Source: Heterodontus francisci (taxonomy: Eukaryota). From it: a stretch of DNA of 64,000 nucleotides. Each line of letters opens with the position of its first letter. Positions within the stretch are counted from its first letter, which is position 1. The position numbers were made by a program, and so were the translations under genes. Location of the stretch: contig NC_090399.1 of assembly GCF_036365525.1 (NCBI RefSeq), forward strand, positions 67,016,862 to 67,080,861, in the 5' to 3' direction. The notes beneath the pieces were generated by a model that had not been told where the DNA came from, ran no database searches, and saw nothing but the letters and a program-made list of their open reading frames with translations. Shown here piece by piece: positions 1 through 57,560 of this stretch.

Positions 1-3000
1 TTACAGGGACTCTGTGTTGTGTTGAGTTACAGGGACTCTGTGTTGTGTATATTTACAGGGACTCTGTGTTGTGATTATTTACAGGGACTCTGTGTTGTGT
101 TGTGTTGATTTACAGGGACTCTGTGTTGTGTTGATTTACAGGGACTCTGTGTTGTGTTTATTTACAGGGACTCTGTTGTGTTGTGTTGTGTTGATTTACA
201 GGGACTCTGTGTTGTGTTTATTTACAGGGACTCTGTGTTGTGTTTATTTACAGGGACTCTGTGTTGTGTTGTGTCTATTTACAGGGACTCTGTGTTGTGT
301 TTATTTACAGGGACTCTGTGTTGTGTTTATTTACAGGGACTCTGTGTTGTGTTGTGTTTATTTACAGGGACTTTGTGTTGTGTTTATTTTCAGGGACTCT
401 GTGTTGTGTTGTGTTGATTTACAGGGACTCTGTGTTGTGTTTATTTACAGGGACTCTGTGTTGTGTTGATTTACAGGGGCTTTGTGTTGTGTTTCTTTAC
501 AGGGACTCTGTGTTGTGTTGTGTTTATTTACAGGGACTCTGTGTTGTGTTGATTTACAGGGACTCTGTGTTGTGTTGTGTTTATTTACAGGGACTCTGTG
601 TTGTGTTTATTTACAGGGACTCTGTGTTGTGTTGTGTTGATTTACAGGGGCTCTGTGTTGTGTTTATTTACAGGGACTCCGTGTTATGTTTATTTACAGG
701 GACTCTGTGTTGTGTTGTGTTTATTTACAGGGACTCTGTGTTGTGTTTATTTACAGGGACTCTGTGTTGTGTTGATTTACAGGGACTCTGTGTTGTGTTT
801 ATTTACAGGGACTCTGTTGTGTTTATTTACAGGGACTCTGTGTTGTGTTGTGTTTATTTACAGGGACTCTGTGTTGTGTTGTGTTTATTTACAGGGACTC
901 TGTGTTATGTTTATTTCCAGGGACTCTGTGTTGTGTTGTGTTTATTTACAGGGACTCTGTGTTGTGTTTATTTACAGGGACTCTGTGTTGTGTTGTGTTT
1001 ATTTACAGGGACTCTGTGTTGTGTTGTGTTGATTTACAGGGGCTCTGTGTTGTGTTTATTTACAGGGACTCCGTGTTGTGTTTATTTACAGGGACTCTGT
1101 GTTGTGTTGGGTTTATTTACAGGGACTCTGTGTTGTGTTTATTTACAGGGACTCTGTGTTGTGATTATTTACAGGGACTCTGTGTTGTGTTGTGTTGATT
1201 TACAGGGACACTGTGTTGTGTTGTGTTGATTTACAGAGACTCTGTGTTGTGTTTATTTACAGGGACTCTGTGTTGTGTTGTGTTGATTTACAGGGACTCT
1301 GTGTTGTGTTTATTTACAGGGACTCTGTGTTGTGTTTATTTACAGGGACTCTGTGTTGTGTTGATTTACAGGGGCTCTGTGTTGTGTTTCTTTACAGGGA
1401 CTCTGTGTTGTGTTGTGTTTATTTACAGGGACTCTGTGTTGTGTTGATTTACAGGGACTCTGTGTTGTGTTGTGTTTATTTACAGGGACTCTGTGTTGTG
1501 TTTATTTACAGGGACTCTGTGTTGTGTTGTGTTGATTTACAGGGGCTCTGTGTTGTGTTTATTTACAGGGACTCCGTGTTGTGTTTATTTACAGGGACTC
1601 TGTGTTGTGTTGTGTTTATTTACAGGGACTCTGTGTTGTGTTTATTTACAGGGACTCTGTGTTGTGTTGATTTACAGGGACTCTGTGTTGTGTTGATTTA
1701 CAGGGACTCTGTGTTGTGATTATTTACAGGGACTCTGTTGTGTTTATTTACAGGGACTCTGTGTTGTGTTGTGTTTATTTACAGGGACTCTGTGTTGTGT
1801 TGTGTTTATTTACAGGGACTCTGTGTTGTGTTGATTTACAGGGACTCTGTGTTGTGTTTATTTACAGGGACTCTGTGTTGTGTTTATTTACAGGGACTCT
1901 GTGTTGTGTTGATTTACAGGGACTCTGTGCTGTGTTGTGTTTATTTACAGGGACTCTGTGTTGTGTTTATTTACAGGGACTCTGTGTTGTGCTGTGTTTA
2001 TTTACAGGGACTCTGTTGTGTTAGGGTTTATTTACAGGGACTCTGTGTTGTGTTTATTTACAGGGACTCTGTGTTGTGTTTATTTACAGAGACTCTGTGT
2101 TGTGTTTATTTACAGGGACTCTGTGTTGTGTTTATTTACAGGGACTCTGTGTTGTGTTTATTTACAGCGACTCTGTGTTGTGTTTATTTACAGGGCCTCT
2201 GTGTTGTGTTTTGTTTATTTACAGGGACTCTGTGTTGTGTTTATTTACAGCGACTCTGTGTTGTGTTTATTTACAGGGCCTCTGTGTTGTGTTTTGTTTA
2301 TTTACAGGGACTCTGTGTTGTGTTTATTTACAGGGCCTCTGTGTTGTGTTGTGTTTATTTACAGGGACTCTGTTGTGTTTATTTACAGGGACTCTGTGTT
2401 GTGTTTATTTACAGGGACTCTGTGTTGTGTTGTGTTTATTTACAGGGACTCTGTTGTGTTTATTTACAGGGACTCTGTGTTATGTTTATTTACAGGGACT
2501 CTGTGTTGTGTTGTGTTTATTTACAGGGACTCAGTTGTGTTTATTTACAGGGACTCTGTGTTGTGTTGTGTTTATTTACAGGGGCTCTGTGTTGTGTTGT
2601 GTTTATTTACAGGGACTCTGTGTTGTGTTGTTTTGGGGTTTATTTACAGGGGCTCTGTTTTGTGTTGTGTTGGTCATTATTTACAGGGGCTCTGTGTTGT
2701 GTTGGGGTTTACTTACAGGGAGTCTGTGTTGTGTTGGGGTTTATTTACAGGGGCTCTGTGTTGTGTTTTGTTTATTTACAGGGACTCTGTGTTGTGTTGT
2801 GTTTATTTACAGGGGCTCTGTGTTGTGTTGTGTTTATTTACAGGGGCTCTGTGTTGTGTTGTGTTTATTTACAGGGACTCTGTGTTGTGTTTATTTACAG
2901 GGACTCTGTGTTGTGTTTATTTACAGGGACTCTGTGTTGTGTTGATTTACAGGGACTCTGTGTTAGGGTTTATTTACAGGGACTCTGTGTTGTGTTTATT

Positions 3001-6000
3001 TACAGGGACTCTGTGTTGTGTTTATTTACAGGGACTCTGTGTTGTGCTGTGTTTATTTACAGGGACTCTGTTGTGTTAGGGTTTATTTACAGGGACTCTG
3101 TGTTGTGTTTATTTACAGGGACTCTGTGCTGTGTTGTGTTTATTTACAGGGACTCTGTGTTGTGTTTATTTACAGGGACTCTGTGTTGTGCTGTGTTTAT
3201 TTACAGGGACTCTGTTGTGTTAGGGTTTATTTACAGGGACTCTGTGTTGTGTTTATTTACAGAGACTCTGTGTTGTGTTTATTTACAGGGACTCTGTGTT
3301 GTGTTTATTTACAGGGACTCTGTGTTGTGTTTATTTACAGCGACTCTGTGTTGTGTTTATTTACAGGGCCTCTGTGTTGTGTTTTGTTTATTTACAGGGA
3401 CTCTGTGTTGTGTTTATTTACAGCGACTCTGTGTTGTGTTTATTTACAGGGCCTCTGTGTTGTGTATTGTTTATTTACTGGGACTCTGTGTTGTGTTTAT
3501 TTACAGGGCCTCTGTGTTGTGTTGTGTTTATTTAAAGGGACTCTGTTGTGTTTATTTACAGGGACTCTGTGTTGTGTTTATTTACAGGGACTCTGTGTTG
3601 TGTTGTGTTTATTTACAGGGACTCTGTTGTGTTTATTTACAGGGACTCTGTGTTATGTTTATTTACAGGGACTCTGTGTTGTGTTGTGTTTATTTACAGG
3701 GACTCTGTTGTGTTTATTTACAGGGACTCTGTGTTATGTTTATTTACAGGGACTCTGTGTTGTGTTGTGTTTATTTACAGGGACTCTGTTGTGTTTATTT
3801 ACAGGGACTCTGTGTTGTGTTTATTTACAGGGGCTCTGTGTTGTGTTTATTTACAGGGACTCTGTGTTGTGTTTATTTACAGGGACTCTGTTGTGTTTAT
3901 TTACAGGGACTCTGTGTTATGTTTATTTACAGGGACTCTGTGTTGTGTTGTGTTTATTTACAGGGACTCTGTTGTGTTTATTTACAGGGACTCTGTGTTG
4001 TGTTTATTTACAGGGGCTCTGTGTTGTGTTTATTTACAGAGACTCTGTGTTGTGTTTATTTACAGGGACTCTGTGTTGTGTTTATTTACAGGGGCTCTGT
4101 GTTGTGTTGTGTTTATTTACAGGGGCTCTGTGTTGTGTTTCTTTACAGGGACTCTGTGTTGTGTTGTGTTTATTTACAGGGGCTCTGTGTTGTGTTGTGT
4201 TTATTTACAGGGGCTCTGTGTTGTGTTGTGTTTATTTACAGGGACTCTGTGTTGTGTTTATTTACAGGGGCTCTGTGTTGTGTTGTGTTTATTTACAGGG
4301 ACTCTGTGTTGTGTTTATTTACAGGGGCTCTGTGTTGTGTTGTGTTTATTTACAGGGGCTCTGTGTTGTGTTTCTTTACAGGGACTCTGTGTTGTGTTGT
4401 GTTTATTTACAGGGGCTCTGTGTTGTGTTGTGTTTATTTACAGGGGCTCTGTGTTGTGTTGTGTTTATTTACAGGGACTCTGTGTTGTGTTTATTTACAG
4501 GGACTCTGTGTTGTGTTGTGTTTATTTACAGGGACTCTGTGTTGTGTTTATTTACAGGGACTCTGTGTTGTGTTGTGTTTATTTACAGGGACTCTGTGTT
4601 GTGTTTATTTACAGGGGCTCTGTGTTGTGTTGTGTTTATTTACAGGGGCTCTGTGTTGTGTTGTGTTTATTTACAGGGACTCTGTGTTGTGTTTATTTAC
4701 AGGGACTCTGTGTTGTGTTGTGTTTCTTTACAGGGACTCTGGGTTGTGTTGTGTTTATTTACAGGGGCTCTGTGTTGTGTTGTGTTTATTTACAGGGACT
4801 CTGTGTTGTGTTTATTTACAGGGGCTCTGTGTTGTGTTGTGTTTATTTACAGGGACTCTGTGTTGTGTTTATTTACAGGGACTCTGTGTTGTTTTGTGTT
4901 TATTTACAGGGACTCTGTGTTGTGTTTATTTACAGGGACTCTGTGTTGTGTTGATTTACAGGGACTCTGTGTTGTGTTTATTTACAGGGACTCTGTGTTG
5001 TGTTGTGTTTATTTACAGGGGCTCTGTGTTGTGTTGTGTTTATTTACAGGGGCTCTGTGTTGTGTTGTGTTTATTTACAGGGACTCTGTGTTGTGTTTAT
5101 TTACAGGGGCTCTGTGTTGTGTTGTGTTTATTTACAGGGACTCTGTGTTGTGTTGTGTTTATTTACAGGGACTCTGTGTTGTGTTTATTTACAGGGACTC
5201 TGTGTTGTTTTGTGTTTATTTACAGGGACTCTGTGTTGTGTTTATTTACAGGGACTCTGTGTTGTGTTGATTTACAGGGACTCTGTGTTGTGTTTATTTA
5301 CAGGGACTCTGTGTTGTGTTGTGTTTATTTACAGGGGCTCTGTGTTGTGTTGTGTTTATTTACAGGGGCTCTGTGTTGTGTTGTGTTTATTTACAGGGAC
5401 TCTGTGTTGTGTTTATTTACAGGGACTCTGTGTTGTGTTTATTTACAGGGACTCTGTGTTGTGTTGATTTACAGGGACTCTGTGTTAGGGTTTATTTACA
5501 GGGACTCTGTGTTGTGTTTATTTACAGGGACTCTGTGTTGTGTTTATTTACAGGGACTCTGTGTTGTGCTGTGTTTATTTACAGGGACTCTGTTGTGTTA
5601 GGGTTTATTTACAGGGACTCTGTGTTGTGTTTATTTACAGGGACTCTGTGCTGTGTTGTGTTTATTTACAGGGACTCTGTGTTGTGTTTATTTACAGGGA
5701 CTCTGTGTTGTGCTGTGTTTATTTACAGGGACTCTGTTGTGTTAGGGTTTATTTACAGGGACTCTGTTGTGTTTATTTACAGGGACTCTGTGTTGTGTTT
5801 ATTTACAGAGACTCTGTGTTGTGTTTATTTACAGGGACTCTGTGTTGTGTTTATTTACAGGGACTCTGTGTTGTGTTGATTTACAGGGACTCTGTGTTGT
5901 GTTTATTTACAGGGACTCTGTGTTGTGTTTATTTACAGGGACTCTGTGTTGTGTTTATTTACAGGGACTCTGTGTTGTGTTTATTTACAGGGACTCTGTT

Positions 6001-9000
6001 GTGTTGATTTACAGGGACTCTGTGTTGTGTTTATTTACAGGGACTCTGTGTTGTGTTTATTTACAGGGACTCTGTGTTGTGTTTATTTACAGGGACTCTG
6101 TGTTGTGTTGATTTACAGGGACTCTGTGTTGTGTTTATTTACAGGGACTCTGTGTTGTGTTTATTTACAGGGACTCTGTGTTGTGTTTATTTACAGGGAC
6201 TCTGTGTTGTGTTTATTTACAGGGACTCTGTGTTGTGTTGATTTACAGGGACTCTGTGTTGTGTTTTGTTTATTTACAGGGACTCTGTGTTGTGTTTATT
6301 TACAGCGACTCTGTGTTGTGTTTATTTACAGGGCCTCTGTGTTGTGTTTTGTTTATTTACAGGGACTCTGTGTTGTGTTTATTTACAGGGCCTCTGTGTT
6401 GTGTTGTGTTTATTTACAGGGACTCTGTTGTGTTTATTTACAGGGACTCTGTGTTGTGTTTATTTACAGGGACTCTGTGTTGTGTTGTGTTTATTTACAG
6501 GGACTCTGTTGTGTTTATTTACAGGGACTCTGTGTTATGTTTATTTACAGGGACTCTGTGTTGTGTTGTGTTTATTTACAGGGACTCTGTTGTGTTTATT
6601 TACAGGGACTCTGTGTTATGTTTATTTACAGGGACTCTGTGTTGTCTTGTGTTTATTTACAGGGACTCTGTTGTGTTTATTTACAGGGACTCTGTGTTGT
6701 GTTTATTTACAGGGGCTCTGTGTTGTGTTTATTTACAGGGACTCTGTGTTGTGTTTATTTACAGGGACTCTGTTGTGTTTATTTACAGGGACTCTGTGTT
6801 ATGTTTATTTACAGGGACTCTGTGTTGTGTTGTGTTTATTTACAGGGACTCTGTTGTGTTTATTTACAGGGACTCTGTGTTGTGTTTATTTACAGGGGCT
6901 CTGTGTTGTGTTTATTTACAGAGACTCTGTGTTGTGTTTATTTACAGGGACTCTGTGTTGTGTTTATTTACAGGGGCTCTGTGTTGTGTTGTGTTTATTT
7001 ACAGGGGCTCTGTGTTGTGTTTCTTTACAGGGACTCTGTGTTGTGTTGTGTTTATTTACAGGGGCTCTGTGTTGTGTTGTGTTTATTTACAGGGGCTCTG
7101 TGTTGTGTTGTGTTTATTTACAGGGACTCTGTGTTGTGTTTATTTACAGGGGCTCTGTGTTGTGTTGTGTTTATTTACAGGGACTCTGTGTTGTGTTTAT
7201 TTACAGGGGCTCTGTGTTGTGTTGTGTTTATTTACAGGGGCTCTGTGTTGTGTTTCTTTACAGGGACTCTGTGTTGTGTTGTGTTTATTTACAGGGGCTC
7301 TGTGTTGTGTTGTGTTTATTTACAGGGGCTCTGTGTTGTGTTGTGTTTATTTACAGGGACTCTGTGTTGTGTTTATTTACAGGGACTCTGTGTTGTGTTG
7401 TGTTTATTTACAGGGACTCTGTGTTGTGTTTATTTACAGGGACTCTGTGTTGTGTTGTGTTTATTTACAGGGACTCTGTGTTGTGTTGTGTTTATTTACA
7501 GGGACTCTGTGTTGTGTTTATTTACAGGGACTCTGTGTTGTTTTGTGTTTATTTACAGGGACTCTGTGTTGTGTTTATTTACAGGGACTCTGTGTTGTGT
7601 TGATTTACAGGGACTCTGTGTTGTGTTTATTTACAGGGACTCTGTGTTGTGTTGTGTTTATTTACAGGGGCTCTGTGTTGTGTTGTGTTTATTTACAGGG
7701 GCTCTGTGTTGTGTTGTGTTTATTTACAGGGACTCTGTGTTGTGTTTATTTACAGGGACTCTGTGTTGTGTTTATTTACAGGGACTCTGTGTTGTGTTGA
7801 TTTACAGGGACTCTGTGTTAGGGTTTATTTACAGGGACTCTGTGTTGTGTTTATTTACAGGGACTCTGTGTTGTGTTTATTTACAGGGACTCTGTGTTGT
7901 GCTGTGTTTATTTACAGGGACTCTGTTGTGTTAGGGTTTATTTACAGGGACTCTGTGTTGTGTTTATTTACAGGGACTCTGTGTTGTGTTTATTTACAGA
8001 GACTCTGTGTTGTGTTTATTTACAGGGACTCTGTGTTGTGTTTATTTACAGGGACTCTGTGTTGTGTTTATTTACAGGGACTCTGTGTTGTGTTGATTTA
8101 CAGGGACTCTGTGTTGTGTTTATTTACAGGGACTCTGTGTTGTGTTTATTTACAGGGACTCTGTGTTGTGTTTATTTACAGGGACTCTGTGTTGTGTTTA
8201 TTTACAGGGACTCTGTGTTGTGTTTATTTACAGGGACTCTGTGTTGTGTTTATTTACAGGGACTCTGTGTTGTGTTTATTTACAGGGACTCTGTGTTGTG
8301 TTGATTTACAGGGACTCTGTGTTGTGTTTATTTACAGGGACTCTGTGTTGTGTTTATTTACAGGGACTCTGTGTTGTGTTGATTTACAGGGACTCTGTGT
8401 TGTGTTTTGTTTATTTACAGGGACTCTGTGTTGTGTTTATTTACAGCGACTCTGTGTTGTGTTTATTTACAGGGCCTCTGTGTTGTGTTTTGTTTATTTA
8501 CAGGGACTCTGTGTTGTGTTTATTTACAGGGCCTCTGTGTTGTGTTGTGTTTATTTACAGGGACTCTGTTGTGTTTATTTACAGGGACTCTGTGTTGTGT
8601 TTATTTACAGGGACTCTGTGTTGTGTTGTGTTTATTTACAGGGACTCTGTTGTGTTTATTTACAGGGACTCTGTGTTATGTTTATTTACAGGGACTCTGT
8701 GTTGTGTTGTGTTTATTTACAGGGACTCTGTTGTGTTTATTTACAGGGACTCTGTGTTATGTTTATTTACAGGGACTCTGTGTTGTGTTGTGTTTATTTA
8801 CAGGGACTCTGTTGTGTTTATTTACAGGGACTCTGTGTTGTGTTTATTTACAGGGGCTCTGTGTTGTGTTTATTTACAGGGACTCTGTGTTGTGTTTATT
8901 TACAGGGACTCTGTTGTGTTTATTTACAGGGACTCTGTGTTATGTTTATTTACAGGGACTCTGTGTTGTGTTGTGTTTATTTACAGGGACTCTGTTGTGT

Positions 9001-12000
9001 TTATTTACAGGGACTCTGTGTTGTGTTTATTTACAGGGGCTTTGTGTTGTGTTTATTTACAGAGACTCTGTGTTGTGTTTATTTACAGGGACTCTGTGTT
9101 GTGTTTATTTACAGGGGCTCTGTGTTGTGTTGTGTTTATTTACAGGGGCTCTGTGTTGTGTTTCTTTACAGGGACTCTGTGTTGTGTTGTGTTTATTTAC
9201 AGGGGCTCTGTGTTGTGTTGTGTTTATTTACAGGGACTCTGTGTTGTGTTTATTTACAGGGACTCTGTGTTGTGTTGTGTTTATTTACAGGGACTCTGTG
9301 TTGTGTTGTGTTTATTTACAGGGACTCTGTGTTGTGTTTATTTACAGGGACTCTGTGTTGTTTTGTGTTTATTTACAGGGACTCTGTGTTGTGTTTATTT
9401 ACAGGGACTCTGTGTTGTGTTGATTTACAGGGACTCTGTGTTGTGTTTATTTACAGGGACTCTGTGTTGTGTTGTGTTTAGTTACAGGGGCTCTGTGTTG
9501 TGTTGTGTTTATTTACAGGGGCTCTGTGTTGTGTTGTGTTTATTTACAGGGACTCTGTGTTGTGTTTATTTACAGGGACTCTGTGTTGTGTTTATTTACA
9601 GGGACTCTGTGTTGTGTTGATTTACAGGGACTCTGTGTTAGGGTTTATTTACAGGGACTCTGTGTTGTGTTTATTTACAGGGACTCTGTGTTGTGTTTAT
9701 TTACAGGGACTCTGTGTTGTGCTGTGTTTATTTACAGGGACTCTGTTGTGTTAGGGTTTATTTACAGGGACTCTGTGTTGTGTTTATTTACAGGGACTCT
9801 GTGTTGTGTTTATTTACAGGGACTCTGTGTTGTGTTTATTTACAGGGACTCTGTGTTGTGTTTATTTACAGGGACTCTGTGTTGTGTTTATTTACAGGGA
9901 CTCTGTGTTGTGTTTATTTACAGGGACTCTGTGTTGTGTTTATTTACAGGGACTCTGTGTTGTGTTTATTTACAGGGACTCTGTGTTGTGTTTATTTACA
10001 GGGACTCTGTGTTGTGTTGATTTACAGGGACTCTGTGTTGTGTTTATTTACAGGGACTCTGTGTTGTGTTTATTTACAGGGACTCTGTGTTGTGTTGATT
10101 TACAGGGACTCTGTGTTGTGTTTTGTTTATTTACAGGGACTCTGTGTTGTGTTTATTTACAGCGACTCTGTGTTGTGTTTATTTACAGGGCCTCTGTGTT
10201 GTGTTTTGTTTATTTACAGGGACTCTGTGTTGTGTTTATTTACAGGGCCTCTGTGTTGTGTTGTGTTTATTTACAGGGACTCTGTTGTGTTTATTTACAG
10301 GGACTCTGTGTTGTGTTTATTTACAGGGACTCTGTGTTGTGTTGTGTTTATTTACAGGGACTCTGTTGTGTTTATTTACAGGGACTCTGTGTTATGTTTA
10401 TTTACAGGGACTCTGTGTTGTGTTGTGTTTATTTACAGGGACTCTGTTGTGTTTATTTACAGGGACTCTGTGTTATGTTTATTTACAGGGACTCTGTGTT
10501 GTGTTGTGTTTATTTACAGGGACTCTGTTGTGTTTATTTACAGGGACTCTGTGTTGTGTTTATTTACAGGGGCTCTGTGTTGTGTTTATTTACAGGGACT
10601 CTGTGTTGTGTTTATTTACAGGGACTCTGTTGTGTTTATTTACAGGGACTCTGTGTTATGTTTATTTACAGGGACTCTGTGTTGTGTTGTGTTTATTTAC
10701 AGGGACTCTGTTGTGTTTATTTACAGGGACTCTGTGTTGTGTTTATTTACAGGGGCTCTGTGTTGTGTTTATTTACAGAGACTCTGTGTTGTGTTTATTT
10801 ACAGGGACTCTGTGTTGTGTTTATTTACAGGGGCTCTGTGTTGTGTTGTGTTTATTTACAGGGGCTCTGTGTTGTGTTTCTTTACAGGGACTCTGTGTTG
10901 TGTTGTGTTTATTTACAGGGGCTCTGTGTTGTGTTGTGTTTATTTACAGGGGCTCTGTGTTGTGTTGTGTTTATTTACAGGGACTCTGTGTTGTGTTTAT
11001 TTACAGGGGCTCCGTGTTGTGTTGTGTTTATTTACAGGGACTCTGTGTTGTGTTTATTTACAGGGGCTCTGTGTTGTGTTGTGTTTATTTACAGGGGCTC
11101 TGTGTTGTGTTTCTTTACAGGGACTCTGTTGTGTTGTGTTTATTTACAGGGGCTCTGTGTTGTGTTGTGTTTCTTTACAGGGGCTCTGTGTTGTGTTGTG
11201 TTTATTTACAGGGACTCTGTGTTGTGTTTATTTACAGGGACTCTGTGTTGTGTTTATTTACAGGGACTCTGTGTTGTGTTGTGTTTATTTACAGGGACTC
11301 TGTGTTGTGTTTATTTACAGGGGCTCTGTGTTGTGTTGTGTTTATTTACAGGGGCTCTGTGTTGTGTTGTGTTTATTTACAGGGACTCTGTGTTGTGTTT
11401 ATTTACAGGGACTCTGTGTTGTGTTGTGTTTCTTTACAGGGACTCTGTGTTGTGTTGTGTTTATTTACAGGGGCTCTGTGTTGTGTTGTGTTTATTTACA
11501 GGGACTCTGTGTTGTGTTTATTTACAGGGGCTCTGTGTTGTGTTGTGTTTATTTACAGGAACTCTGTGTTGTGTTGTGTTTATTTACAGGGACTCTGTGT
11601 TGTGTTTATTTACAGGGACTCTGTGTTGTTTTGTGTTTATTTACAGGGACTCTGTGTTGTGTTTATTTACAGGGACTCTGTGTTGTGTTGATTTACAGGG
11701 ACTCTGTGTTGTGTTTATTTACAGGGACTCTGTGTTGTGTTGTGTTTATTTACAGGGACTCTGTGTTGTGTTTATTTACAGGGACTCTGTGTTGTGTTGA
11801 TTTACAGGGACTCTGTGTTAGGGTTTATTTACAGGGACTCTATGTTGTGTTTATTTACAGGGACTCTGTGTTGTGTTTATTTACAGGGACTCTGTGTTGT
11901 GCTGTGTTTATTTACAGGGACTCTGTTGTGTTAGGGTTTATTTACAGGGACTCTGTGTTGTGTTTATTTACAGGGACTCTGTGCTGTGTTGTGTTTATTT

Positions 12001-15000
12001 ACAGGGACTCTGTGTTGTGTTTATTTACAGGGACTCTGTGTTGTGCTGTGTTTATTTACAGGGACTCTGTTGTGTTAGGGTTTATTTACAGGGACTCTGT
12101 GTTGTGTTTATTTACAGGGACTCTGTGTTGTGTTGATTTACAGGGACTCTGTGTTAGGGTTTATTTACAGGGACTCTGTGTTGTGTTTATTTACAGGGAC
12201 TCTGTGTTGTGTTTATTTACAGGGACTCTGTGTTGTGCTGTGTTTATTTACAGGGACTCTGTTGTGTTAGGGTTTATTTACAGGGACTCTGTGTTGTGTT
12301 TATTTACAGGGACTCTGTGTTGTGTTTATTTACAGAGACTCTGTGTTGTGTTTATTTACAGGGACTCTGTGTTGTGTTTATTTACAGGGACTCTGTGTTG
12401 TGTTTATTTACAGGGACTCTGTGTTGTGTTGATTTACAGGGACTCTGTGTTGTGTTTATTTACAGGGACTCTGTGTTGTGTTTATTTACAGGGACTCTGT
12501 GTTGTGTTTATTTACAGGGACTCTGTGTTGTGTTTATTTACAGGGACTCTGTGTTGTGTTGATTTACAGGGACTCTGTGTTGTGTTTATTTACAGGGACT
12601 CTGTGTTGTGTTTATTTACAGGGACTCTGTGTTGTGTTGATTTACAGGGACTCTGTGTTGTGTTTTGTTTATTTACAGGGACTCTGTGTTGTGTTTATTT
12701 ACAGCGACTCTGTGTTGTGTTTATTTACAGGGCCTCTGTGTTGTGTTTTGTTTATTTACAGGGACTCTGTGTTGTGTTTATTTACAGGGCCTCTGTGTTG
12801 TGTTGTGTTTATTTACAGGGACTCTGTTGTGTTTATTTACAGGGACTCTGTGTTGTGTTTATTTACAGGGACTCTGTGTTGTGTTGTGTTTATTTACAGG
12901 GACTCTGTTGTGTTTATTTACAGGGACTCTGTGTTATGTTTATTTACAGGGACTCTGTGTTGTGTTGTGTTTATTTACAGGGACTCTGTTGTGTTTATTT
13001 ACAGGGACTCTGTGTTATGTTTATTTACAGGGACTCTGTGTTGTGTTGTGTTTATTTACAGGGACTCTGTTGTGTTTATTTACAGGGACTCTGTGTTGTG
13101 TTTATTTACAGGGGCTCTGTGTTGTGTTTATTTACAGGGACTCTGTGTTGTGTTTATTTACAGGGACTCTGTTGTGTTTATTTACAGGGACTCTGTGTTA
13201 TGTTTATTTACAGGGACTCTGTGTTGTGTTGTGTTTATTTACAGGGACTCTGTTGTGTTTATTTACAGGGACTCTGTGTTGTGTTTATTTACAGGGGCTC
13301 TGTGTTGTGTTTATTTACAGAGACTCTGTGTTGTGTTTATTTACAGGGACTCTGTGTTGTGTTTATTTACAGGGGCTCTGTGTTGTGTTGTGTTTATTTA
13401 CAGGGGCTCTGTGTTGTGTTTCTTTACAGGGACTCTGTGTTGTGTTGTGTTTATTTACAGGGGCTCTGTGTTGTGTTGTGTTTATTTACAGGGGCTCTGT
13501 GTTGTGTTGTGTTTATTTACAGGGACTCTGTGTTGTGTTTATTTACAGGGGCTCCGTGTTGTGTTGTGTTTATTTACAGGGACTCTGTGTTGTGTTTATT
13601 TACAGGGGCTCTGTGTTGTGTTGTGTTTATTTACAGGGGCTCTGAGTTGTGTTTCTTTACAGGGACTCTGTGTTGTGTTGTGTTTATTTACAGGGGCTCT
13701 GTGTTGTGTTGTGTTTATTTACAGGGGCTCTGTGTTGTGTTGTGTTTATTTACAGGGACTCTGTGTTGTGTTTATTTACAGGGACTCTGTGTTGTGTTTA
13801 TTTACAGGGACTCTGTGTTGTGTTGTGTTTATTTACAGGGACTCTGTGTTGTGTTTATTTACAGGGGCTCTGTGTTGTGTTGTGTTTATTTACAGGGGCT
13901 CTGTGTTGTGTTGTGTTTATTTACAGGGACTCTGTGTTGTGTTTATTTACAGGGACTCTGTGTTGTGTTGTGTTTCTTTACAGGGACTCTGTGTTGTGTT
14001 GTGTTTATTTACAGGGGCTCTGTGTTGTGTTGTGTTTATTTACAGGGACTCTGTGTTGTGTTTATTTACAGGGGCTCTGTGTTGTGTTGTGTTTATTTAC
14101 AGGAACTCTGTGTTGTGTTGTGTTTATTTACAGGGACTCTGTGTTGTGTTTATTTACAGGGACTCTGTGTTGTTTTGTGTTTATTTACAGGGACTCTGTG
14201 TTGTGTTTATTTACAGGGACTCTGTGTTGTGTTGATTTACAGGGACTCTGTGTTGTGTTTATTTACAGGGACTCTGTGTTGTGTTGTGTTTATTTACAGG
14301 GACTCTGTGTTGTGTTTATTTACAGGGACTCTGTGTTGTGTTGATTTACAGGGACTCTGTGTTAGGGTTTATTTACAGGGACTCTGTGTTGTGTTTATTT
14401 ACAGGGACTCTGTGTTGTGTTTATTTACAGGGACTCTGTGTTGTGCTGTGTTTATTTACAGGGACTCTGTTGTGTTAGGGTTTATTTACAGGGACTCTGT
14501 GTTGTGTTTATTTACAGGGACTCTGTGCTGTGTTGTGTTTATTTACAGGGACTCTGTGTTGTGTTTATTTACAGGGACTCTGTGTTGTGCTGTGTTTATT
14601 TACAGGGACTCTGTTGTGTTAGGGTTTATTTACAGGGACTCTGTGTTGTGTTTATTTACAGGGACTCTGTGTTGTGTTTATTTACAGAGACTCTGTGTTG
14701 TGTTTATTTACAGGGACTCTGTGTTGTGTTTATTTACAGGGACTCTGTGTTGTGTTTATTTACAGCGACTCTGTGTTGTGTTTATTTACAGGGCCTCTGT
14801 GTTGTGTTTTGTTTATTTACAGGGACTCTGTGTTGTGTTTATTTACAGCGACTCTGTGTTGTGTTTATTTACAGGGCCTCTGTGTTGTGTTTTGTTTATT
14901 TACAGGGACTCTGTGTTGTGTTTATTTACAGGGCCTCTGTGTTGTGTTGTGTTTATTTACAGGGACTCTGTTGTGTTTATTTACAGGGACTCTGTGTTGT

Positions 15001-17147
15001 GTTTATTTACAGGGACTCTGTGTTGTGTTGTGTTTATTTACAGGGACTCTGTTGTGTTTATTTACAGGGACTCTGTGTTATGTTTATTTACAGGGACTCT
15101 GTGTTGTGTTGTGTTTATTTACAGGGACTCTGTTGTGTTTATTTACAGGGACTCTGTGTTATGTTTATTTACAGGGACTCTGTGTTGTGTTGTGTTTATT
15201 TACAGGGACTCTGTTGTGTTTATTTACAGGGACTCTGTGTTGTGTTTATTTACAGGGGCTCTGTGTTGTGTTTATTTACAGGGACTCTGTGTTGTGTTTA
15301 TTTACAGGGACTCTGTTGTGTTTATTTACAGGGACTCTGTGTTATGTTTATTTACAGGGACTCTGTGTTGTGTTGTGTTTATTTACAGGGACTCTGTTGT
15401 GTTTATTTACAGGGACTCTGTGTTGTGTTTATTTACAGGGGCTCTGTGTTGTGTTTATTTACAGAGACTCTGTGTTGTGTTTATTTACAGGGACTCTGTG
15501 TTGTGTTTATTTACAGGGGCTCTGTGTTGTGTTGTGTTTATTTACAGGGGCTCTGTGTTGTGTTTCTTTACAGGGACTCTGTGTTGTGTTGTGTTTATTT
15601 ACAGGGGCTCTGTGTTGTGTTGTGTTTATTTACAGGGGCTCTGTGTTGTGTTGTGTTTATTTACAGGGACTCTGTGTTGTGTTTATTTACAGGGGCTCTG
15701 TGTTGTGTTGTGTTTATTTACAGGGACTCTGTGTTGTGTTTATTTACAGGGGCTCTGTGTTGTGTTGTGTTTATTTACAGGGGCTCTGTGTTGTGTTTCT
15801 TTACAGGGACTCTGTGTTGTGTTGTGTTTATTTACAGGAGCTCTGTGTTGTGTTGTGTTTATTTACAGGGTCTCTGTGTTGTGTTGTGTTTATTTACAGG
15901 GACTCTGTGTTGTGTTTATTTACAGGGACTCTGTGTTGTGTTTATTTACAGGGACTCTGTGTTGTGTTGTGTTTATTTACAGGGGCTCTGTGTTGTGTTG
16001 TGTTTATTTACAGGGACTCTGTGTTGTGTTGTGTTTATTTACAGGGGCTCTGTGTTGTGTTGTGTTTATTTACAGGGGCTCTGTGTTGTGTTGTGTTTAT
16101 TTACAGGGACTCTGTGTTGTGTTGTGTTTATTTACAGGGGCTCTGTGTTGTGTTGTGTTTATTTACAGGGACTCTGTGTTGTGTTTATTTACAGGGGCTC
16201 TGTGTTGTGTTGTGTTTATTTACAGGGGCTCTGTGTTGTGTTGTGTTTATTTACAGGGACTCTGTGTTGTGTTTATTTACAGGGACTCTGTGTTGTGTTG
16301 TGTTTATTTACAGGGACTCTGTGTTGTGTTTATTTACAGGGACTCTGTGTTGTGTTGTGTTTATTTACAGGGACTCTGTGTTGTGTTGTGTTTATTTACA
16401 GGGGCTCTGTGTTGTGTTGTGTTTATTTACAGGGACTCTGTGTTGTGTTGTGTTTATTTACAGGGGCTCTGTGTTGTGTTGTGTTTATTTACAGGGGCTC
16501 TGTGTTGTGTTGTGTTTATTTACAGGGACTCTGTGTTGTGTTTATTTACAGGGACTCTGTGTTGTGTTGTGTTTATTTACAGGGACTCTGTGTTGTGTTT
16601 ATTTACAGGGACTCTGTGTTGTGTTGTGTTTATTTACAGGGACTCTGTGTTGTGTTTATTTACAGGGGCTCTGTGTTGTGTTGTGTTTATTTACAGGGGC
16701 TCTGTGTTGTGTTGTGTTTATTTACAGGGACTCTGTGTTGTGTTTATTTACAGGGACTCTGTGTTGTGTTGTGTTTCTTTACAGGGACTTTGTGTTGTGT
16801 TGTGTTTATTTACAGGGACTCTGTGTTGTGTTTATTTACAGGGGCTCTGTGTTGTGTTTCTTTACAGGGACTCTGTGTTGTGTTATGTTTATTTACAGGG
16901 ACTCTGTGTTGTGTTTATTTACAGGGGCTCTGTGTTGTGTTTATTTACAGGGGCTCTGTGTTGTGTTATGTTTATTTACAGGGACTCTGTGTTGTGTTTA
17001 TTTACAGGGGCTCTGTGTTGTGTTTATTTACAGGGGCTCTGTGTTGTGTTATGTTTATTTACAGGGACTCTGTGTTGTGTTTATTTACAGGGGCTCTGTG
17101 TTGTGTTTATTTACAGGGGCTCTGTGTTGTGTTGTGTTTATTTACAG
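1..17147. repeat. Large tandem satellite/minisatellite, consensus TTTATTTACAGGGACTCTGTGTTGTG (26 bp; 24-bp and 31-bp variants), roughly 600 units by length/unit estimate, open at the left window edge; presumed intron 1 of the MHC class I gene
   Basis: Repeat visible continuously from position 1 to the last TTTACAG ending at 17147. Recurrent variant units (GGGGCTC, GGGCCTC, AGCGACTC, AGAGACTC, TTAGGGTTT, TTTCTTTAC, TTGATTTAC). Confidence 0.98.
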
Positions 17148-17172
17148 AGTTTGATCCTTTTCCCTCTTTCAG

Positions 17173-17433
17173 CCTCCCACTGGTACCGGTATTTTTATAC
17201 CTCAGTATCTGGTGTGTCGGATTTCCCTCAGTTTGTTGCTGTCGGTTACCTGGATGATAAGGAGCTGAATTATTATGACAGTTGGATGAAGACCATTGAA
17301 CCTCGACACCGGGTGATGGAGCTGGCGGCCGATGCTGAATTTTACCGGAGGAACACGGAAGTCGCGCGGGGAGCGGAGAAGATCGACAAGGTTAATATTG
17401 ACAACAACAGGAAGCGGAGCAACCAGTCGGGCG
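17173..17433 (+). CDS. MHC class I exon 2 (alpha1 domain), 261 nt: (A)SHWYRYFYTSVSGVSDFPQFVAVGYLDDKELNYYDSWMKTIEPRHRVMELAADAEFYRRNTEVARGAEKIDKVNIDNNRKRSNQSG(G)
   Basis: Acceptor cttttccctctttcAG (17171-17172), donor G|GTGAGT (17434). SHxxRYFYT, PxFVAVGYxDD, YDS and NQS motifs. Confidence 0.96.
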
Positions 17434-20400
17434 GTGAGTCCTCAGCATCTTCACCTGGGGATCCGAGCCGGGAATGGGGGCAGGAAGGGCGGCACAGAGC
17501 GGGATCGGGAAAAGAGCCAGGAATGGGGGAGGGGTGGATCGGGATTGAGGGGGGGATCCAGTGATTCGGGCTGTGATTGGCTGTGGCTGTGTGATTGACA
17601 TATCAGAGGGCGGGTTCTCAATGAGCCGTGTTCTGATTGGGTGTTGTGTGTTTGATTGACAGTCTATGAGGGCTAAGTCTCTGGGAGCCGTGTTCTGAGT
17701 GGCTATATTTGTTTGATTGACAGTCTGTGAGGGCGGAGTCTCTGGTAGCTGGATTGTGATTGGCTGTGTATGTTGGACAGACTGTGAGGGCGTTGTCGCC
17801 TGGAACCGGGTTCTGATTGGCTGGGTATTTTTGATTGACAGTCTGTGGGCGGAGTCTCAGGGAGCCAGGGTCTGATTGGCTCTGTGATTGATTGACAGTG
17901 TGAGGGCGGGGTCTCTGTGATTGGCTGTTTATTTGATTTCAGTTTGTTTGTACTTTGCCAACCCAATGTTTTTTTCATGTTTGTGCTTGGGGCCAGGCTA
18001 TTCAGTTTCTGTCCATTAAAACCCTCTCTGCACGAACGCATTGTCTTTCTCCACTCCATTAACATACCGTTTGCCTTTGCTCCTTGACCACTTGGTCAGT
18101 TAGTCTCTGTGACTTTGTCCGATCTACACCTTCTCGTTTGTTATATCTTCTCCTACCCCCACTTTACTGGTTTAAAACCTTTTGTATTTCTAATATTTGC
18201 CAGGTCGGATGACGGGTTACTGACCTGAAACGTTAACTCTGCTTTCTCTCCACAGATACTGCCACAGTCATAGAGAGATACAGCACCGAAACAGGTCCCT
18301 TTGCCCACCGGGGCTGTGCCAACCAACAACCACCCATTTATACTAATACTACATTAATCCCATATTCCTACCATATCCCCACAATTCATGTACCACCTAC
18401 CTACACTAGGGGCAATTTACAACGGTCAATTTTCCTATCAACCTGCAAGTCTTTGGCTGTGGGAGGATACCTGAGCACCTGGCAGAAACCCAAGCGGTCA
18501 CAGGGAGAACTTGCAAACTTCGCAGAGATAGTACCCAGAACTGAACCCAGGTCACTGGAGCTGTGAGGCTGCAGTGCTAGCCACTGCGCCACCCCGGGTG
18601 CAAGATTGTGGGGATGTGGTAGGGAATAATGTAGGATTAGGATAAATGGGGGGTTGTTGGTCAGCACAGACTCAGTGGGCTGAACGGCCTGATTCAGTGC
18701 TGTATCTCTCTCATCAGAGCTGCTGATTATTTCCAGCATTTCTTGTTTTGATTTCCAGCATCTGCAGTATTTTGCTTTTATTTTAGTGTTTAATTCACTG
18801 CCACGTCTCTTCCAAGAATGCCTACCTTGAAGAAGTTCTGCTCTTCTCTCCGACGGGGTTTTCGTTTCTCTCTTTTACCTTGTTCACCTTCATTGCTTTC
18901 TATTTCCCTCCTGGTGTTTGATAAGGTATCTACCAAAACTCGTTTTCACAGCCACATCTCCTTCCTCAGTGACTGTCTCCAGCTCAGACTTATTCCACGT
19001 GGATCCCAACTGCAGTTTCACCCATCATGTTTTGAATCCACCCAGGATCACAGGTATCTCCGAGAAATACAACGTTCCTCGGACTGCTACTCTTGCCGCA
19101 TCCTGAGATCCACACTCAGTGCTATGCGCCGCCATATGCACACACTGGACCTCTCTCTCCAGCAGCACCGCCTCACTTTATCTCAAAGCTGTTCTACTCC
19201 GCAGTTTCATTTCATCTTTCATCTTATCCGACGCATTAACAAAAAACTTTTTTTCTTCCTTTCAGGTGTTAAGGAACGCAAGCTCCAGCAGCTGATGGGG
19301 ACTAATGCCCCTCCAGATCCTCCTTCCGCTTCACTTCCCTCTGACCCCACCCTTTCTGATCTGAACCCTTGCCGTGTATTCACTATACCCTCTGATCTCC
19401 CCCTCTCTGACGCTGTATGATCTCTACTTAGCAGATGACTCAGTTTTATCCCCTAACACCACCACCTTGATTAATTTCTCGCTGGGCATGACTTTGAGCT
19501 CTTCTTCCATCGCCTTCGCCTCCGTTCTCACTTCTTTGACCAGGAGTTCTCCTCCCATCCAGCAGACCCATTCACCTGCCTCCATCATTCCCCCTCTACC
19601 TGGACCCCTCCCCCTGGCCTCTTACCCACTCTTGATATTTTCATTGAGAATTGTTGGTGAGACATCGGCCGTCTTAATTTCTCTGCCCCCCTCACTCACT
19701 CACTGTTCCCTTCTGAATTTGCTGCACTCCGTTCTCTCAGGTCTAACCCCAACATTGCGATCAAACCTGCAGACAAGGGTGGTGCTGAAGTTGTCTGACG
19801 TACCGACCTCTACCTTGCAGAGGCTCAGCACCAACTCTCAGACACTTCTTCCTACCTTCCCCTGGACCAGGACCCCACCACCCAACATCAAGCTACAGTC
19901 CACAGGACTGTCACTGACCTCATTTCCTCTGAAGATCTTCCCTCTACAGCTTCAAACCTCATAGTCCCACAACCCCGGACAGCCCGCTTCTACCTCCTTC
20001 CCAAAATCCACAAACGGGACTGACCCGGCAGACCCATTGTGTCAGCCTGCTCCTGCATCACTGAACTAATTTCTTCCTATCTTGACTCTATCTTTTCTCC
20101 GCTAGTCCAGTCTCTTCCCACCTACATCCGTGACTCTTCTGATGCCCCACGTCATTTTGACAATTTCCAGTTTCCTGGCCCCAACCGCCTCCTCTTCACC
20201 CTGAACGTCCAATCTCTCTACACCTCCATCCCCCACCAGGATGGTTTGAGGGCTCTCCGCTTCTTCCTTGAACAGAGGCCCGACCAGTCCCCATCCACCA
20301 CTACCTTCCTCCACCTGGCTGAACTGGTTCTCACATTGAACAACTTCTCCTTCAACTCCACTCACTTCCTTCAAGTAAAAGATGTTGCGATGGGTACCCA

Positions 20401-23400
20401 CATGGGTCCTAGTTATGCCTGTCTTTTTGTATCGAACATTCCTTTTATTTATTTTTTTATTTATTTAGAGATACAGCACCGAAATAGACCCTTCAGCCCA
20501 CCGAGTCTGTGCTGACCAAGAACCACCCACTTATACTGACCCTACAGTAATCCCATATTCCCTACCACCTACCTACACTAGGGGCAATTTACAATGGCCA
20601 ATTTACCTATCCACCTGTAAGTCTTTGGCGGTGGGAGGAAACCGGAGCACCCGGCGAAAACCCACGCAGACACAGGGAGAACTCGCAAACTCCACACAGG
20701 CAGTAACCAGAATTGAACACGGGTCCCTGGAGCTGTGAGGCTGCGGTGCTAACCACTGCGCCACTGTGCCGCCCATTCCTTGTTCCAGTCCTACTCAGGC
20801 CCCCTCCCCCAACTCTTTTTCCAGTACATTGATGACTGTATCGGTGCCGTTTCCTGCTCTCGCCCCGAACTGGAAAACTTTATCAACCTTGCTTCTAATT
20901 TTCACCCTTCTCCCACCTTCACATGATCCATCTCTGACACTTCCATTCCCTTCCTTGGCTTCTCTGTCTCCATCTCTGGTGATAGGCTCTCTACTAATGT
21001 TCATCATAAGCCCACCAACTCCCACAGCTACCTCAACTACACGTCTTCACACCCTGTCTCCTGTAAGGACTCCATTCCATTCTCCCAGTTTCTTCGTCTC
21101 TGACACATCTGCTCTGATGATGCAATTGTCTGCAATAGTGCTTCTGATATGTCTTCCTTTTTCCTCAACCGAGGATTTCCCCCCACTGTGGTTGACAGGG
21201 CCTTCAACCGTGTCCGGCCCATTTCCCGCGCCTCTACCCTCACCCCTTCCCCTCCCTCCCAGAACCGTGACAGGGTTCCCCGTGTCCTCACTTTTCACCC
21301 CATCAGCCTTCATATCCAAAGGATCATCCTCCGCCATTTCCGCCACCTCCAGCGTGATGCCACTACCAGTCGCATCTTCCCCTCCCTTCCCCTGTCAGCA
21401 TTCCGAAGGGATTGTTCCCTCCGCGACACCCTGGTCCACTCCTCCATTACCCCCACCACCTTGTCCCCTTCCCACGGCACCTTCCCCTGCAATCACAGGA
21501 GGTGTAATACCTGCCCATTTACCTCCTCTCTCCTCACTATCCCCGGCCCCAAACACTGCTTTCAGGTGATGCAGTGATTTACTTGTACTTCTTTCAATGT
21601 AGTATACTGTATTCGCTGCTCACAGTGTGGTCTCCTCTACACTGGGGAGACCAAACGCAGACTGGGTGACCGCTTTGCGGAACATCTCTGCTCAGTCCAA
21701 AAGCATGATCCCCAAGCTTCCGTTGCTGGGCATTTCAACACTCCCCCTCCCCCGCGCTCATGCTCACATCTCTGTCCTGGGAATTCTGCAGTGTTCCAGT
21801 GAACATCAATGAAAGCTCGAGGAACAGCATCTCATTTACCGATTAGGCACACTATAGACTGCCGGACTGAACATTGAGTTCAATAATTTCAGAGCATGAT
21901 GGGCCCCCTTTTTATTTTTAGTTATTTTTTCTTTTTTTTTTCTTTGTTCATTTTATTTTAGTTTGTTTAGTTTGTTTCTACTTTGCCTACCCACTGTTTT
22001 TTTCATGTTTGTGCTTTGGGCCAGGCTGTTCAGTTTTCTGTCAATTTACACCCTCTCTGCACTTTGTCTTTTACCACACCATGAACATATTGTTTGCCTT
22101 TGCTCCATGACCTTCTGGTCAGTTATTCTCTGTGACCTTGTCCTATCAGCACCATCTCTTTGGTTATCTCTTGCCCCACCCCTGCTTTATTTGCTTAAAA
22201 CCTTTCACAATCCGAATATTTGTCAGTTCTGAAGAAGGGTCACTGACCTGAAACGTTAACTCTGCTTCTCTCTCCACAGATGCTGCCAGACCTGCTGAGT
22301 ATTTCCAGCCTTTCTTGTTTTTACTTCAGATTTCCAGCATCTGCAGTATTTTGTTTTTATTTATCTGATTGGCTGCGTGTGTTTGGTTGGTAGGGTGTGA
22401 GGGGGTGGCATGGGGAGGAACTCTGTGATCCAGGCTGTAATTGGCTGTATTTGTTTGATTGACAGGGTGTGAGGGTGGGGTCGCTGTGTGCCTGGCTCTG
22501 ATTGGCTGTATGTGTTTGATTTGACAGGGATCCACACATGGCAGACCATGTACGGCTGTGAGCTGCGGGAGGACGGCAACAGCAGTGGGTTCGCACAGTA
22601 TGGCTGGAACGGGAAGGATTTCATCAACTTCGACAAGAAGAACATGGTCTGGGTCACCCCGGTCACCTGGGGAGAGATCACCAAGAGCAAGTGGGATCAG
22701 AACAAGGAGGGGAACAAGAAGCTGAAGAATTACCTGGAGGAACGGTGCATCGCGTGGCTGAAAAGATATCTGCAGATAGGAGAAAAAGAACTGAGGCCCG
22801 GTGAGGGAGTTTTTTTTATTCATTCATGGGATGTGGGTGTCGCTGGCCAGGCCAGCATTTAGTGCCCATCCCTAATTGCCCTTGAGAAGGTGGTGGTGAG
22901 CTGCCTTCTTGAACCGCTGCAGTCTGTCTGGTGCAGGTTCAACCACAGTGCTGTTCGGAAGGGAGTTCCAGGATTTTGACCCAGCGACAGTGAAGGTACG
23001 GCGATATAGTTCCAAGTCAGGATGGTGGGTGACTTGAACGGGAAGTTGCAGGTGGTGGTGTTCCCATGCATCTGCTGCCCTTGACCTTTTGGTGGTAGAG
23101 GTCACGGGTTTGGAAGGTACTGTCGACGGAGTCTCGGTGCATTGCTGCAGTGCATCTTGTAGATGGTACACCCTGCTGCCACTGTGCGTCGGTGGTGGAG
23201 GGAGTGAATGTTTGTAGATGGGGTGACAATCAAGCGGGCTGTTTTGTCCTGGATGGTGTCGAGCTTCTTGAGTGTTGTTGGAGCTCCACCCATCCAGGAA
23301 AGTGGAGAGTATTCCATCACACTCCTGACTTGTGCCTTGTAGATGGTGGACAGTCTTTGGGGAGTCAGGAGGTGAGTTACTCGCCGCAGGATTCCTAGCC

Positions 23401-57005: not shown

Positions 57006-57362
57006 GGGGGCGGCACAGTGGCGCAGTGGTTAGCACTGCAGCCTCACAGCTCCAGCGACCCGGGTTCAATTCTGGGTACTGCCTGTGTGGAGTTTGCAAG
57101 TTCTCCCTGTGTGTGCGTGGGTTTCCTCCGGGTGCTCCGGTTTCCTCCCACATGCCAAAGACTTGCAGGTTGATAGGTAAATTGGCCATTAGCAATTGCC
57201 TCTAGTATAGGTAGGTGGTAGGGAAATATAGGGACAGGTGGGGATGTGGAAGGAATATGGGATTAGTGTAGGATTAGTATAAATGGGTGGTTAATGGTCG
57301 GCACAGACTCGGTGGGCCGAAGGACCTGTTTCAGTGCTGTATCTCTAAACTAAACTAAACTA
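57006..57362 (+). mobile_element. HE1-type SINE (copy 1 in the segmental repeat)
   Basis: A/B boxes and a (CTAAA)n tail. Confidence 0.92.
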
Positions 57363-57560
57363 ACCATCTTCCTGTCTCCTCCTCTTCTCCCTNNNNNNNN
57401 NNNNNNNNNNNNNNNNNNNNNNNNNNNNNNNNNNNNNNNNNNNNNNNNNNNNNNNNNNNNNNNNNNNNNNNNNNNNNNNNNNNNNNNNNNNNNNNNNNNN
57501 NNNNNNNNNNNNNNNNNNNNNNNNNNNNNNNNNNNNNNNNNNNNNNNNNNNNNNNNNNNN

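What the first reader, a model, noticed from the sequence alone, without database searches (positions are those of the whole stretch)
1..17172. A >=17-kb satellite made of splice-acceptor-like units ends right at the MHC class I alpha1 acceptor
Seen: every unit contains (U/G-rich)TTTATTTACAG|G, a U-rich tract plus YAG|G, on the gene's sense strand. The last unit ends at 17147, 25 nt before the real AG (17171-17172), and use of that decoy would frameshift alpha1. The leader exon is not in the window, so intron 1 is probably >17 kb and holds hundreds of decoy acceptors. Established: UG-rich repeats are bound by TDP-43 and CELF proteins, which repress cryptic splice sites. Inference: the array may have grown from duplicated acceptor-region sequence (CAG|GG ACT C also resembles a Gly-Thr-His exon-2 start), and its length could modulate splicing or expression as a VNTR-like dial.
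Basis: partly seen in the sequence, partly recalled or inferred. Interest (0 to 1): 0.7.

Follow-up and report, generated by a model that had tools for sequence, protein, structure and literature searches.

The report
Giant satellite intron in shark MHC
A shark immune gene (MHC class I) has a 196-kb first intron, 96% of it one short repeat with about 5,600 splice-signal look-alikes, yet the RNA assemblies seen join the leader exon to the true splice site, so the repeat is likely a tolerated runaway copy of one found in sister genes rather than a splicing dial.

Summary
The array is 188,414 bp, not 17 kb: about 5,770 units with no N, ending 25 nt before the alpha1 AG. The leader exon lies 196,132 bp upstream. 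A likely-RNA contig joins that leader (30 of 30 shown letters) to the real acceptor, and a second organism shows the same joint. The repeat is not dispersed: all 2,210 exact matches of a 28-nt probe are accounted for, 2,046 here, 159 in intron 1 of nine class I paralog loci (1.8-3.7 kb arrays) and 5 on another contig. The unit does not resemble this gene's alpha1 acceptor; it resembles the family's AG-free 43-45-bp intron-1 repeat and, about as well, the alpha2 acceptor. Units have background pyrimidine content (9-11 of 17; real site 15), and the last 21.6 kb has no donor motif, so exon definition likely ignores them. The best reading is a tolerated expansion of a family-wide intronic minisatellite. 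The length-dial idea is untested. This scan has already noted similar arrays at other genes of this genome; this is the longest among the notes returned.

The parts
1..17147 (+). 3' end (616 units of 24-31 bp) of a 188,414-bp intron-1 minisatellite array, G000:C29:66845595-67034008. The window holds only the young 26/31-bp subfamily, which replaces the 30/32/37-bp GGGG-containing subfamily about 4 kb before the window starts.
17139..17147 (+). Core of the last unit: nearest decoy AG (25 nt upstream of the real one, frameshifting); also carries two branch-point-like motifs 29 and 33 nt from the real AG (inferred role)
17148..17172 (+). Unique 25-nt real alpha1 acceptor: branch-like motif at -19, 15-nt uninterrupted pyrimidine run, CAG
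   Evidence: RNA-contig joint
17173..17433 (+). MHC class I alpha1 exon, joined in contigs to the leader exon at C29:66837853-66837901 (outside the window; intron 1 = 196,132 bp)
17567..17917 (+). Intron-2 57-61-bp repeat carrying copies of an alpha2-acceptor-like end; continues at about 22367-22527 after inserted repeats
22528..22800 (+). alpha2 exon; its TG-rich acceptor (9 of 17 pyrimidines) is used in RNA contigs and resembles the satellite unit
27462..27725 (+). alpha3 exon
28480..28584 (+). Transmembrane exon
38060..38092 (+). Likely first cytoplasmic exon (10 of 12 residues match the tail of cDNA-derived P0003)

Best explanation
The array is a 188-kb expansion of a 32-bp minisatellite that also sits in intron 1 of sister MHC class I genes; it is likely a tolerated passenger that grew by unequal exchange or slippage, and its AGs are likely ignored because they lack a downstream splice donor and have weaker pyrimidine tracts than the true site. 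Shown: size, position in intron 1, family distribution, a leader-to-real-AG joint in likely-RNA contigs, no donor motif in the last 21.6 kb, background-level pyrimidine content. Inferred: (1) the alpha1 exon is picked by exon definition from its own donor at 17434, so only the last few units compete; (2) among those, the real AG wins by its 15-nt pyrimidine run, and the last unit's AG lies too close behind the likely branch point; (3) loss or absence of the AG-free 43-53-bp repeat that separates this minisatellite from the acceptor in paralogs brought it to 25 nt from the exon.
For: Leader joined to 17170-17173 in X5 (143-nt loose end; 30 of 30 shown letters match this leader, against 29 and 28 for the two closest paralog leaders) and in X8 of a second organism (22 of 23 letters). 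alpha1-alpha2 joint without differences in X7. The NCBI model P0001 and the protein P0003 both put this leader type directly on ASHWYRY. 2,210 of 2,210 probe matches placed: 2,046 here, 159 in nine paralog intron-1 loci, 5 on C5. 0 GTRAG in the whole array; last GTAA 21,636 nt before the real AG. Units have 9-11 of 17 pyrimidines, against a background YAG mean of 9.5 (n=280) and 15 for the real site. The AG positions are conserved about as much as their neighbours (98 and 95% against 92-99% in the old part), so there is no sign of purge or of special retention. Neighbouring paralogs carry harder cases, with about 136 and 15 copies of a 137-bp unit that repeats their own acceptor. Published precedents report normal splicing (PMC3087553 passages; PMC1557585 passages).
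Against: Contigs drop rare forms, so minor decoy use is not excluded. The contig that carries the leader covers only the part of alpha1 shared by two versions of the gene (they part after 17341), so it is not proven that the leader joint comes from the haplotype with the 188-kb array. The used alpha2 acceptor is as pyrimidine-poor as the units (9 of 17), so the count does not show the units are incompetent; no MaxEntScan or SpliceAI score was available. One run (X6) enters the real AG from a different, transposon-like upstream piece, which is unexplained. The 21 kb next to the acceptor is a younger subfamily that lost the G-run and the weak donors, which selection as well as drift could produce.
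Confidence: 0.72

Rival explanations
1. The array is a length-variable dial. More units would mean longer transcription time, more sequestration of U/UG-binding proteins and more mis-splicing to frameshifting AGs, tuning the level or timing of this class I allele.
For: The intron is 196 kb against 6-67 kb in 17 other leader/alpha1 pairs. The nearest decoy is frameshifting. Short satellite-matching contigs occur in the likely-RNA runs (they may come from paralogs). Human precedents for repeats near 3' splice sites exist (CFTR TG, ABCA7; abstract and introduction of PMC10078293).
Against: All three listed loose ends that enter alpha1 do so at the real AG. Perfect (TG)n runs are at most 4 repeats long (3 places). 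AG is not specially conserved. In F7 minigenes, changing the repeat number did not change donor choice (PMC1557585 passages).
Confidence: 0.12
2. Shared intron-1 minisatellites act as recombination or gene-conversion substrates that swap promoter-leader blocks and alpha1 exons between class I loci; the giant array is a by-product of, or an aid to, that exchange.
For: The first about 7.7 kb of this intron is 91-95% identical to the same part of two neighbouring genes whose alpha1 is only 39-40% identical, while the satellite itself is shared with a different group of genes 4-10 Mb away. P0003 pairs the neighbour's leader peptide with this gene's alpha1 start. A >10-kb intron 2 serves allelic recombination in trout class I (PMC6523485 passages).
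Against: Mosaic introns show that exchange happened, not that the repeat causes it or is kept for it; the two neighbours with the most similar 5' intron lack this satellite.
Confidence: 0.11
3. The array's length is inflated by the assembly, or the array separates a leader that really belongs to another gene or haplotype.
For: No raw long reads were examined. A leaderless minus-strand alpha1 lies 1.5 kb from the leader, which suggests a local rearrangement.
Against: No N in the array, subfamilies and higher-order periods change along it, and the longest exact repeat is 4.6 kb. RNA contigs join this leader to this alpha1. The minus-strand gene has a stop in alpha2.
Confidence: 0.05

Closest known systems
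Amphioxus 'mirage' minisatellites and human boundary VNTRs (F7 IVS7, CBS, LMNB2); PMC3087553 and PMC1557585, passages read
   Same: Intronic tandem repeat next to an exon, with many silent splice-site look-alikes and normal splicing.
   Different: Mirage units copy the gene's own boundary and number a few to a few dozen. Here the unit is not a copy of the alpha1 boundary, stops 25 nt short of it and numbers about 5,770. The 137-bp arrays of the two neighbouring paralogs are the true mirages.
Drosophila Y-loop genes kl-3 and kl-5 (satellite intron gigantism); PMC6508621, abstract read
   Same: An intron made almost wholly of tandem repeat (96% here) that must be transcribed and spliced out.
   Different: There: megabases of simple satellite, germline-specific, with dedicated RNA-binding proteins. 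Here: 196 kb, 24-37-bp units with an AG in each, in an immune gene, with no cofactor shown.
Splicing-associated tandem repeats (CFTR (TG)n with TDP-43; ABCA7 25-bp VNTR); PMC10078293, abstract and introduction read
   Same: TG-rich repeat close to a 3' splice site.
   Different: No long perfect TG run; no length-splicing association is shown; the affected exon here is not known to be skippable.
Large recombinogenic intron 2 of teleost classical class I (trout UBA, cyprinids, medaka); PMC6523485, passages read
   Same: An enlarged intron in a polymorphic class I gene with signs of exchange between loci or alleles.
   Different: Here it is intron 1 (leader/alpha1), over ten times longer than the >10 kb cited, and made of one minisatellite.

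Membership tests
Mirage / boundary-spanning minisatellite | Unit is a tandem copy of the adjacent exon-intron boundary | tested here: not met
   Unit against the alpha1 acceptor and exon start: no better than shuffles, p 0.25-0.89; the array ends 25 nt before the AG.
Mirage / boundary-spanning minisatellite | Normal splicing despite pseudo-sites | tested here: met
   Leader joined to the real AG in contigs of X5 and X8; contigs show presence only.
Mirage / boundary-spanning minisatellite | Copy number varies between haplotypes | not testable with these tools
   Only one copy of this alpha1 is assembled. Paralog arrays of the same unit range from 1.8 to 3.7 kb.
Satellite giant intron (Y-loop type) | Intron consists almost entirely of tandem repeat and is spliced out | tested here: met
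   188,414 of 196,132 bp; joint.
Satellite giant intron (Y-loop type) | Megabase size and simple-satellite units | tested here: not met
   196 kb; units 24-37 bp.
Satellite giant intron (Y-loop type) | Dedicated RNA-binding proteins needed for expression | not testable with these tools
   Needs CLIP or knockdown.
Splicing-associated TR (CFTR TG / ABCA7 type) | Long (TG)n run next to the 3' splice site | tested here: not met
   Runs of 2 repeats: 10,206; of 3: 208; of 4: 3; none longer.
Splicing-associated TR (CFTR TG / ABCA7 type) | Repeat length associated with splicing outcome | not testable with these tools
   No population DNA and RNA pairs available.
Recursive splice sites | YAG directly followed by a donor (AG|GT) | tested here: not met
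   11 YAG|GT among 5,608 YAG and none followed by GTRAG; 107 weak GTAA motifs in the older part could allow occasional micro pseudo-exons.
Shark classical class I (UAA) | Conserved peptide-terminus residues, polymorphism, location by the immunoproteasome/TAP genes | tested here: inconclusive
   7 of 8 anchor residues by recalled HLA numbering (position 59 is Phe); closest named full-length homolog is labelled 'MHC class IA antigen'; two versions in one sample's contigs; a proteasome-subunit exon about 1 Mb away. No tree was built, and two neighbours look equally classical.

The most novel reading that the evidence does not exclude
A likely classical shark MHC class I allele carries a 188-kb intron-1 macro-array whose haplotype-specific length sets how fast and how much the allele is expressed (hours of extra transcription, a sink for U/UG-binding proteins, leak to frameshifting AGs), and the same repeat family drives promoter-leader swapping between class I loci: MHC expression polymorphism encoded in satellite length.
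Probability: 0.12. Interest if true: 0.72.

Novelty: new member of a known kind. Interest (0 to 1): 0.36.

Why it matters
As it stands, it is an extreme natural test of 3' splice-site choice: a vertebrate spliceosome finds one AG behind about 5,600 look-alikes in an expressed immune gene, as exon definition predicts. It also shows that shark class I first introns are built from a few shared minisatellites that expand 50- to 100-fold at single loci, which will break short-read assemblies and annotation of the MHC. If length varied between haplotypes and tracked expression, it would be a new source of MHC functional polymorphism; nothing here shows that.

Tried and rejected
No RNA holder was listed on record; X5-X8 are guessed RNA, and I treat them as RNA only because their contigs join exons at the GT-AG boundaries. 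No contig of the four runs covered 17154-17168, the stretch that use of the last decoy would include, and no loose end at a satellite unit was leader-like; only four units were laid and contigs drop rare forms, so this blank is not counted as evidence. Contig depths of the two gene versions were not used to rank expression. Origin from the alpha1 acceptor was rejected. The choice between the 43-45-bp repeat (best p about 0.001) and the alpha2 or TM acceptors (p 0.001-0.035) is unresolved; there were 33 comparisons of T/G-rich strings, so most would not survive correction. Genome-wide dispersal was rejected for the 28-nt probe; more diverged copies would be missed. The 2,640-aa open frame from the array into alpha1 was rejected as a gene: it follows from stop-poor composition, and the RNA joint skips it. 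My regex leader search gave only false hits in repeats and its output was cut; leaders were then found by DNA search. The 'cyt1' row was offset by two bases and is ignored. A crude promoter-motif scan found nothing useful. The two Almeida papers on shark class I lineages were not held, so lineage naming stays open, and they or their supplements may describe intron sizes. Searches (listings only, unless a paper is cited as read) returned no paper describing this intron. MaxEntScan and SpliceAI were unavailable.
Full report
Observation. The window starts inside a tandem array that runs to 17147. Units are mostly 26 or 31 bp; 515 of 657 AGs in 1-17172 lie in the context TTTATTTACAG|GG, and 615 of 616 units keep the AG. 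The real acceptor ends at 17172 and is followed by an intact class I alpha1 exon, then alpha2, alpha3 and transmembrane exons and a likely cytoplasmic exon at 38060-38092. Splicing to the last unit's AG would shift the frame and stop after 36 codons.

Size and context. The window is G000:C29:67016862-67080861 of a 6-Gb genome; the source of the identical protein labels it Heterodontus francisci. Fetching upstream showed the array is continuous from C29:66845595 to 67034008: 188,414 bp, about 5,770 units, no N. The first 167 kb are 30/32/37-bp units with a GGGG run; the last 21 kb are 26/31-bp units without it. Higher-order periods of about 1-5 kb change along the array and the longest exact repeat is 4,607 bp. 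A class I leader exon (MIGLTVLVLLYGGVSA, phase-1 donor) lies at C29:66837853-66837901, giving an intron 1 of 196,132 bp, 96% satellite. Seventeen other leader/alpha1 pairs, matched by nearest same-strand hit, span 6-67 kb.

Is it spliced? Four likely-RNA runs (two samples, two studies) were laid as contigs. In X5 a 303-nt contig fits from 17170 with a 143-nt loose end whose 30 shown letters match this leader at 30 of 30 (29 and 28 for the closest paralog leaders); the three-letter overlap is the CAG common to leader end and intron end. X8, another organism, shows the same joint at 22 of 23 letters. X7 joins alpha1 to alpha2 with no differences. P0001 and P0003 both have this leader type on ASHWYRY. 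Limits: the leader-bearing contig covers only the half of alpha1 shared by two versions of the gene, and contigs do not show rare forms. X6 enters the same AG from a piece resembling a transposon fragment in the 5' intron that has many genomic relatives; this may be an exonised element of the other haplotype or a chimeric contig.

Where else is the repeat? A 28-nt probe has 2,210 exact matches in the genome. All were placed: 2,046 in this array, 159 in intron 1 of nine class I paralog loci (seven on C29, two on small contigs), always in the sense orientation, and 5 in a 193-bp copy on C5. In the paralogs the array is 1.8-3.7 kb and is followed by a short degenerate stretch and an AG-free 45-53-bp repeat that runs up to the acceptor. 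Repeats abutting the alpha1 acceptor are the rule in this family: 10 of the 12 loci run through TRF have one ending within about 35 nt of the exon. Two neighbours carry a 137-bp unit that includes their own acceptor, about 136 and 15 times.

Origin of the unit. Against shuffles, the unit does not match this gene's alpha1 acceptor or exon start (p 0.25-0.89). It matches the 43-45-bp intron-1 repeat (best p about 0.001; there its CAG aligns with a branch-point-like CTGAT, not with an acceptor) and the alpha2 and TM acceptors (p 0.001-0.035), among 33 comparisons. Adjacency in the paralogs favours the 43-45-bp repeat (inference); the question is open.

Why the decoys are likely ignored. The array has no GTRAG, and its last GTAA is 21,636 nt before the real AG; only 11 of 5,608 YAGs are followed by GT, so these are not recursive sites. 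Under exon definition (established knowledge) an AG without a nearby downstream donor is not defined, which leaves the last few units to compete for the alpha1 donor. These have 11 of 17 pyrimidines with a longest run of 3, against 15 of 17 with a run of 15 for the real site; background YAGs average 9.5. The last unit offers branch-like motifs at -29 and -33 from the real AG, too close in front of its own AG (inference). Against this, the used alpha2 acceptor scores only 9 of 17, so the units are not shown to be incompetent. AG is conserved like neighbouring positions. The sense strand has no AATAAA or ATTAAA while the antisense strand has 4,973 AATAAA, so this orientation avoids premature polyadenylation; the copies share ancestry, so their common orientation is not independent evidence.

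The gene. It is classical-like: the closest named homolog is a bamboo-shark 'class IA antigen', the best structure hit is 6LUP, 7 of 8 anchor residues are kept by recalled numbering, and a proteasome-subunit exon lies about 1 Mb away. Lineage was not settled. The 5' 7.7 kb of intron 1 is 91-95% identical to two neighbours with 39-40% alpha1 identity, which shows exchange between loci.

Comparison with known systems. Boundary-copying minisatellites with silent splice sites are described in amphioxus and humans (PMC3087553 and PMC1557585, passages; both leads came from earlier notes of this scan). Satellite giant introns are described in Drosophila (PMC6508621, abstract), splicing-linked repeats in humans (PMC10078293, abstract and introduction), and large recombinogenic class I introns in teleosts (PMC6523485, passages). 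I also read passages of PMC10751288 and PMC12562908 for lineage names. This array works like the first two but is a strict member of neither. Earlier notes of this scan report 15-99 kb arrays at other genes of the same genome (unchecked apart from the repeat family seen).

Verdict. Real and much larger than reported, intronic, family-restricted, and spliced out correctly in the contigs seen. Most likely a tolerated expansion (0.72); dial 0.12, recombination role 0.11, artefact 0.05. New member of a known kind; interest 0.36.

Noticed in passing
G000:C29:66702713-66721428 (L055, L063, L021) and L019: A true mirage: an 18.7-kb array of a 137-bp unit repeats the gene's own alpha1 acceptor about 136 times (15 times in the paralog at 66.35 Mb); the 40 nt before decoy and real AG are identical in the latter. 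A cleaner test of 3' splice-site choice than the given finding.
   Followed up: partly
L029:97-361 (C29:66836101-66836352, minus strand): An alpha1 exon with no leader found on its strand, head-to-head with this gene's leader 1.5 kb away; its alpha2 has a TGA stop. Likely a truncated pseudogene.
   Followed up: partly
L029:1902-9600: The 5' part of intron 1 (65-, 40- and 51-bp repeats and a LINE-like fragment) is 91-95% identical to two neighbouring class I genes with very different alpha1; P0003 has the neighbour's leader peptide.
   Followed up: partly
whole array, C29:66845595-67034008: 4,973 AATAAA on the antisense strand and none on the sense strand.
   Followed up: no
window 17567-17917 and about 22367-22527: An intron-2 57-61-bp repeat whose last copy is the alpha2 acceptor, split by about 4.4 kb of inserted repeats; about five acceptor-like copies lie just after the alpha1 donor.
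   Followed up: partly
L029:8600-8852 and window 17171: Run X6 has a contig entering the real alpha1 AG from a piece similar, but not identical, to a sense LINE-like fragment in intron 1: a possible exonised element of the other haplotype or a chimera.
   Followed up: partly
window about 31106-31190 and 38060-38092: The NCBI model P0001 takes its tail from a repeat-like stretch near 31.1 kb and reads the 38.06-kb exon in another frame; the P0003-like tail suggests that the model's C-terminus is wrong.
   Followed up: partly
C29:66474268-66528126 (L057, L090-L093, L022): A neighbouring class I gene has a 59-kb intron 1 that is mostly a 43-45-bp repeat.
   Followed up: partly
L058:4916-5108 (C5): A lone 193-bp copy of the satellite outside the class I contig; gene context not checked.
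   Followed up: no
window 54243-63702: Several kilobase-long CTC-rich arrays in repeated blocks.
   Followed up: no
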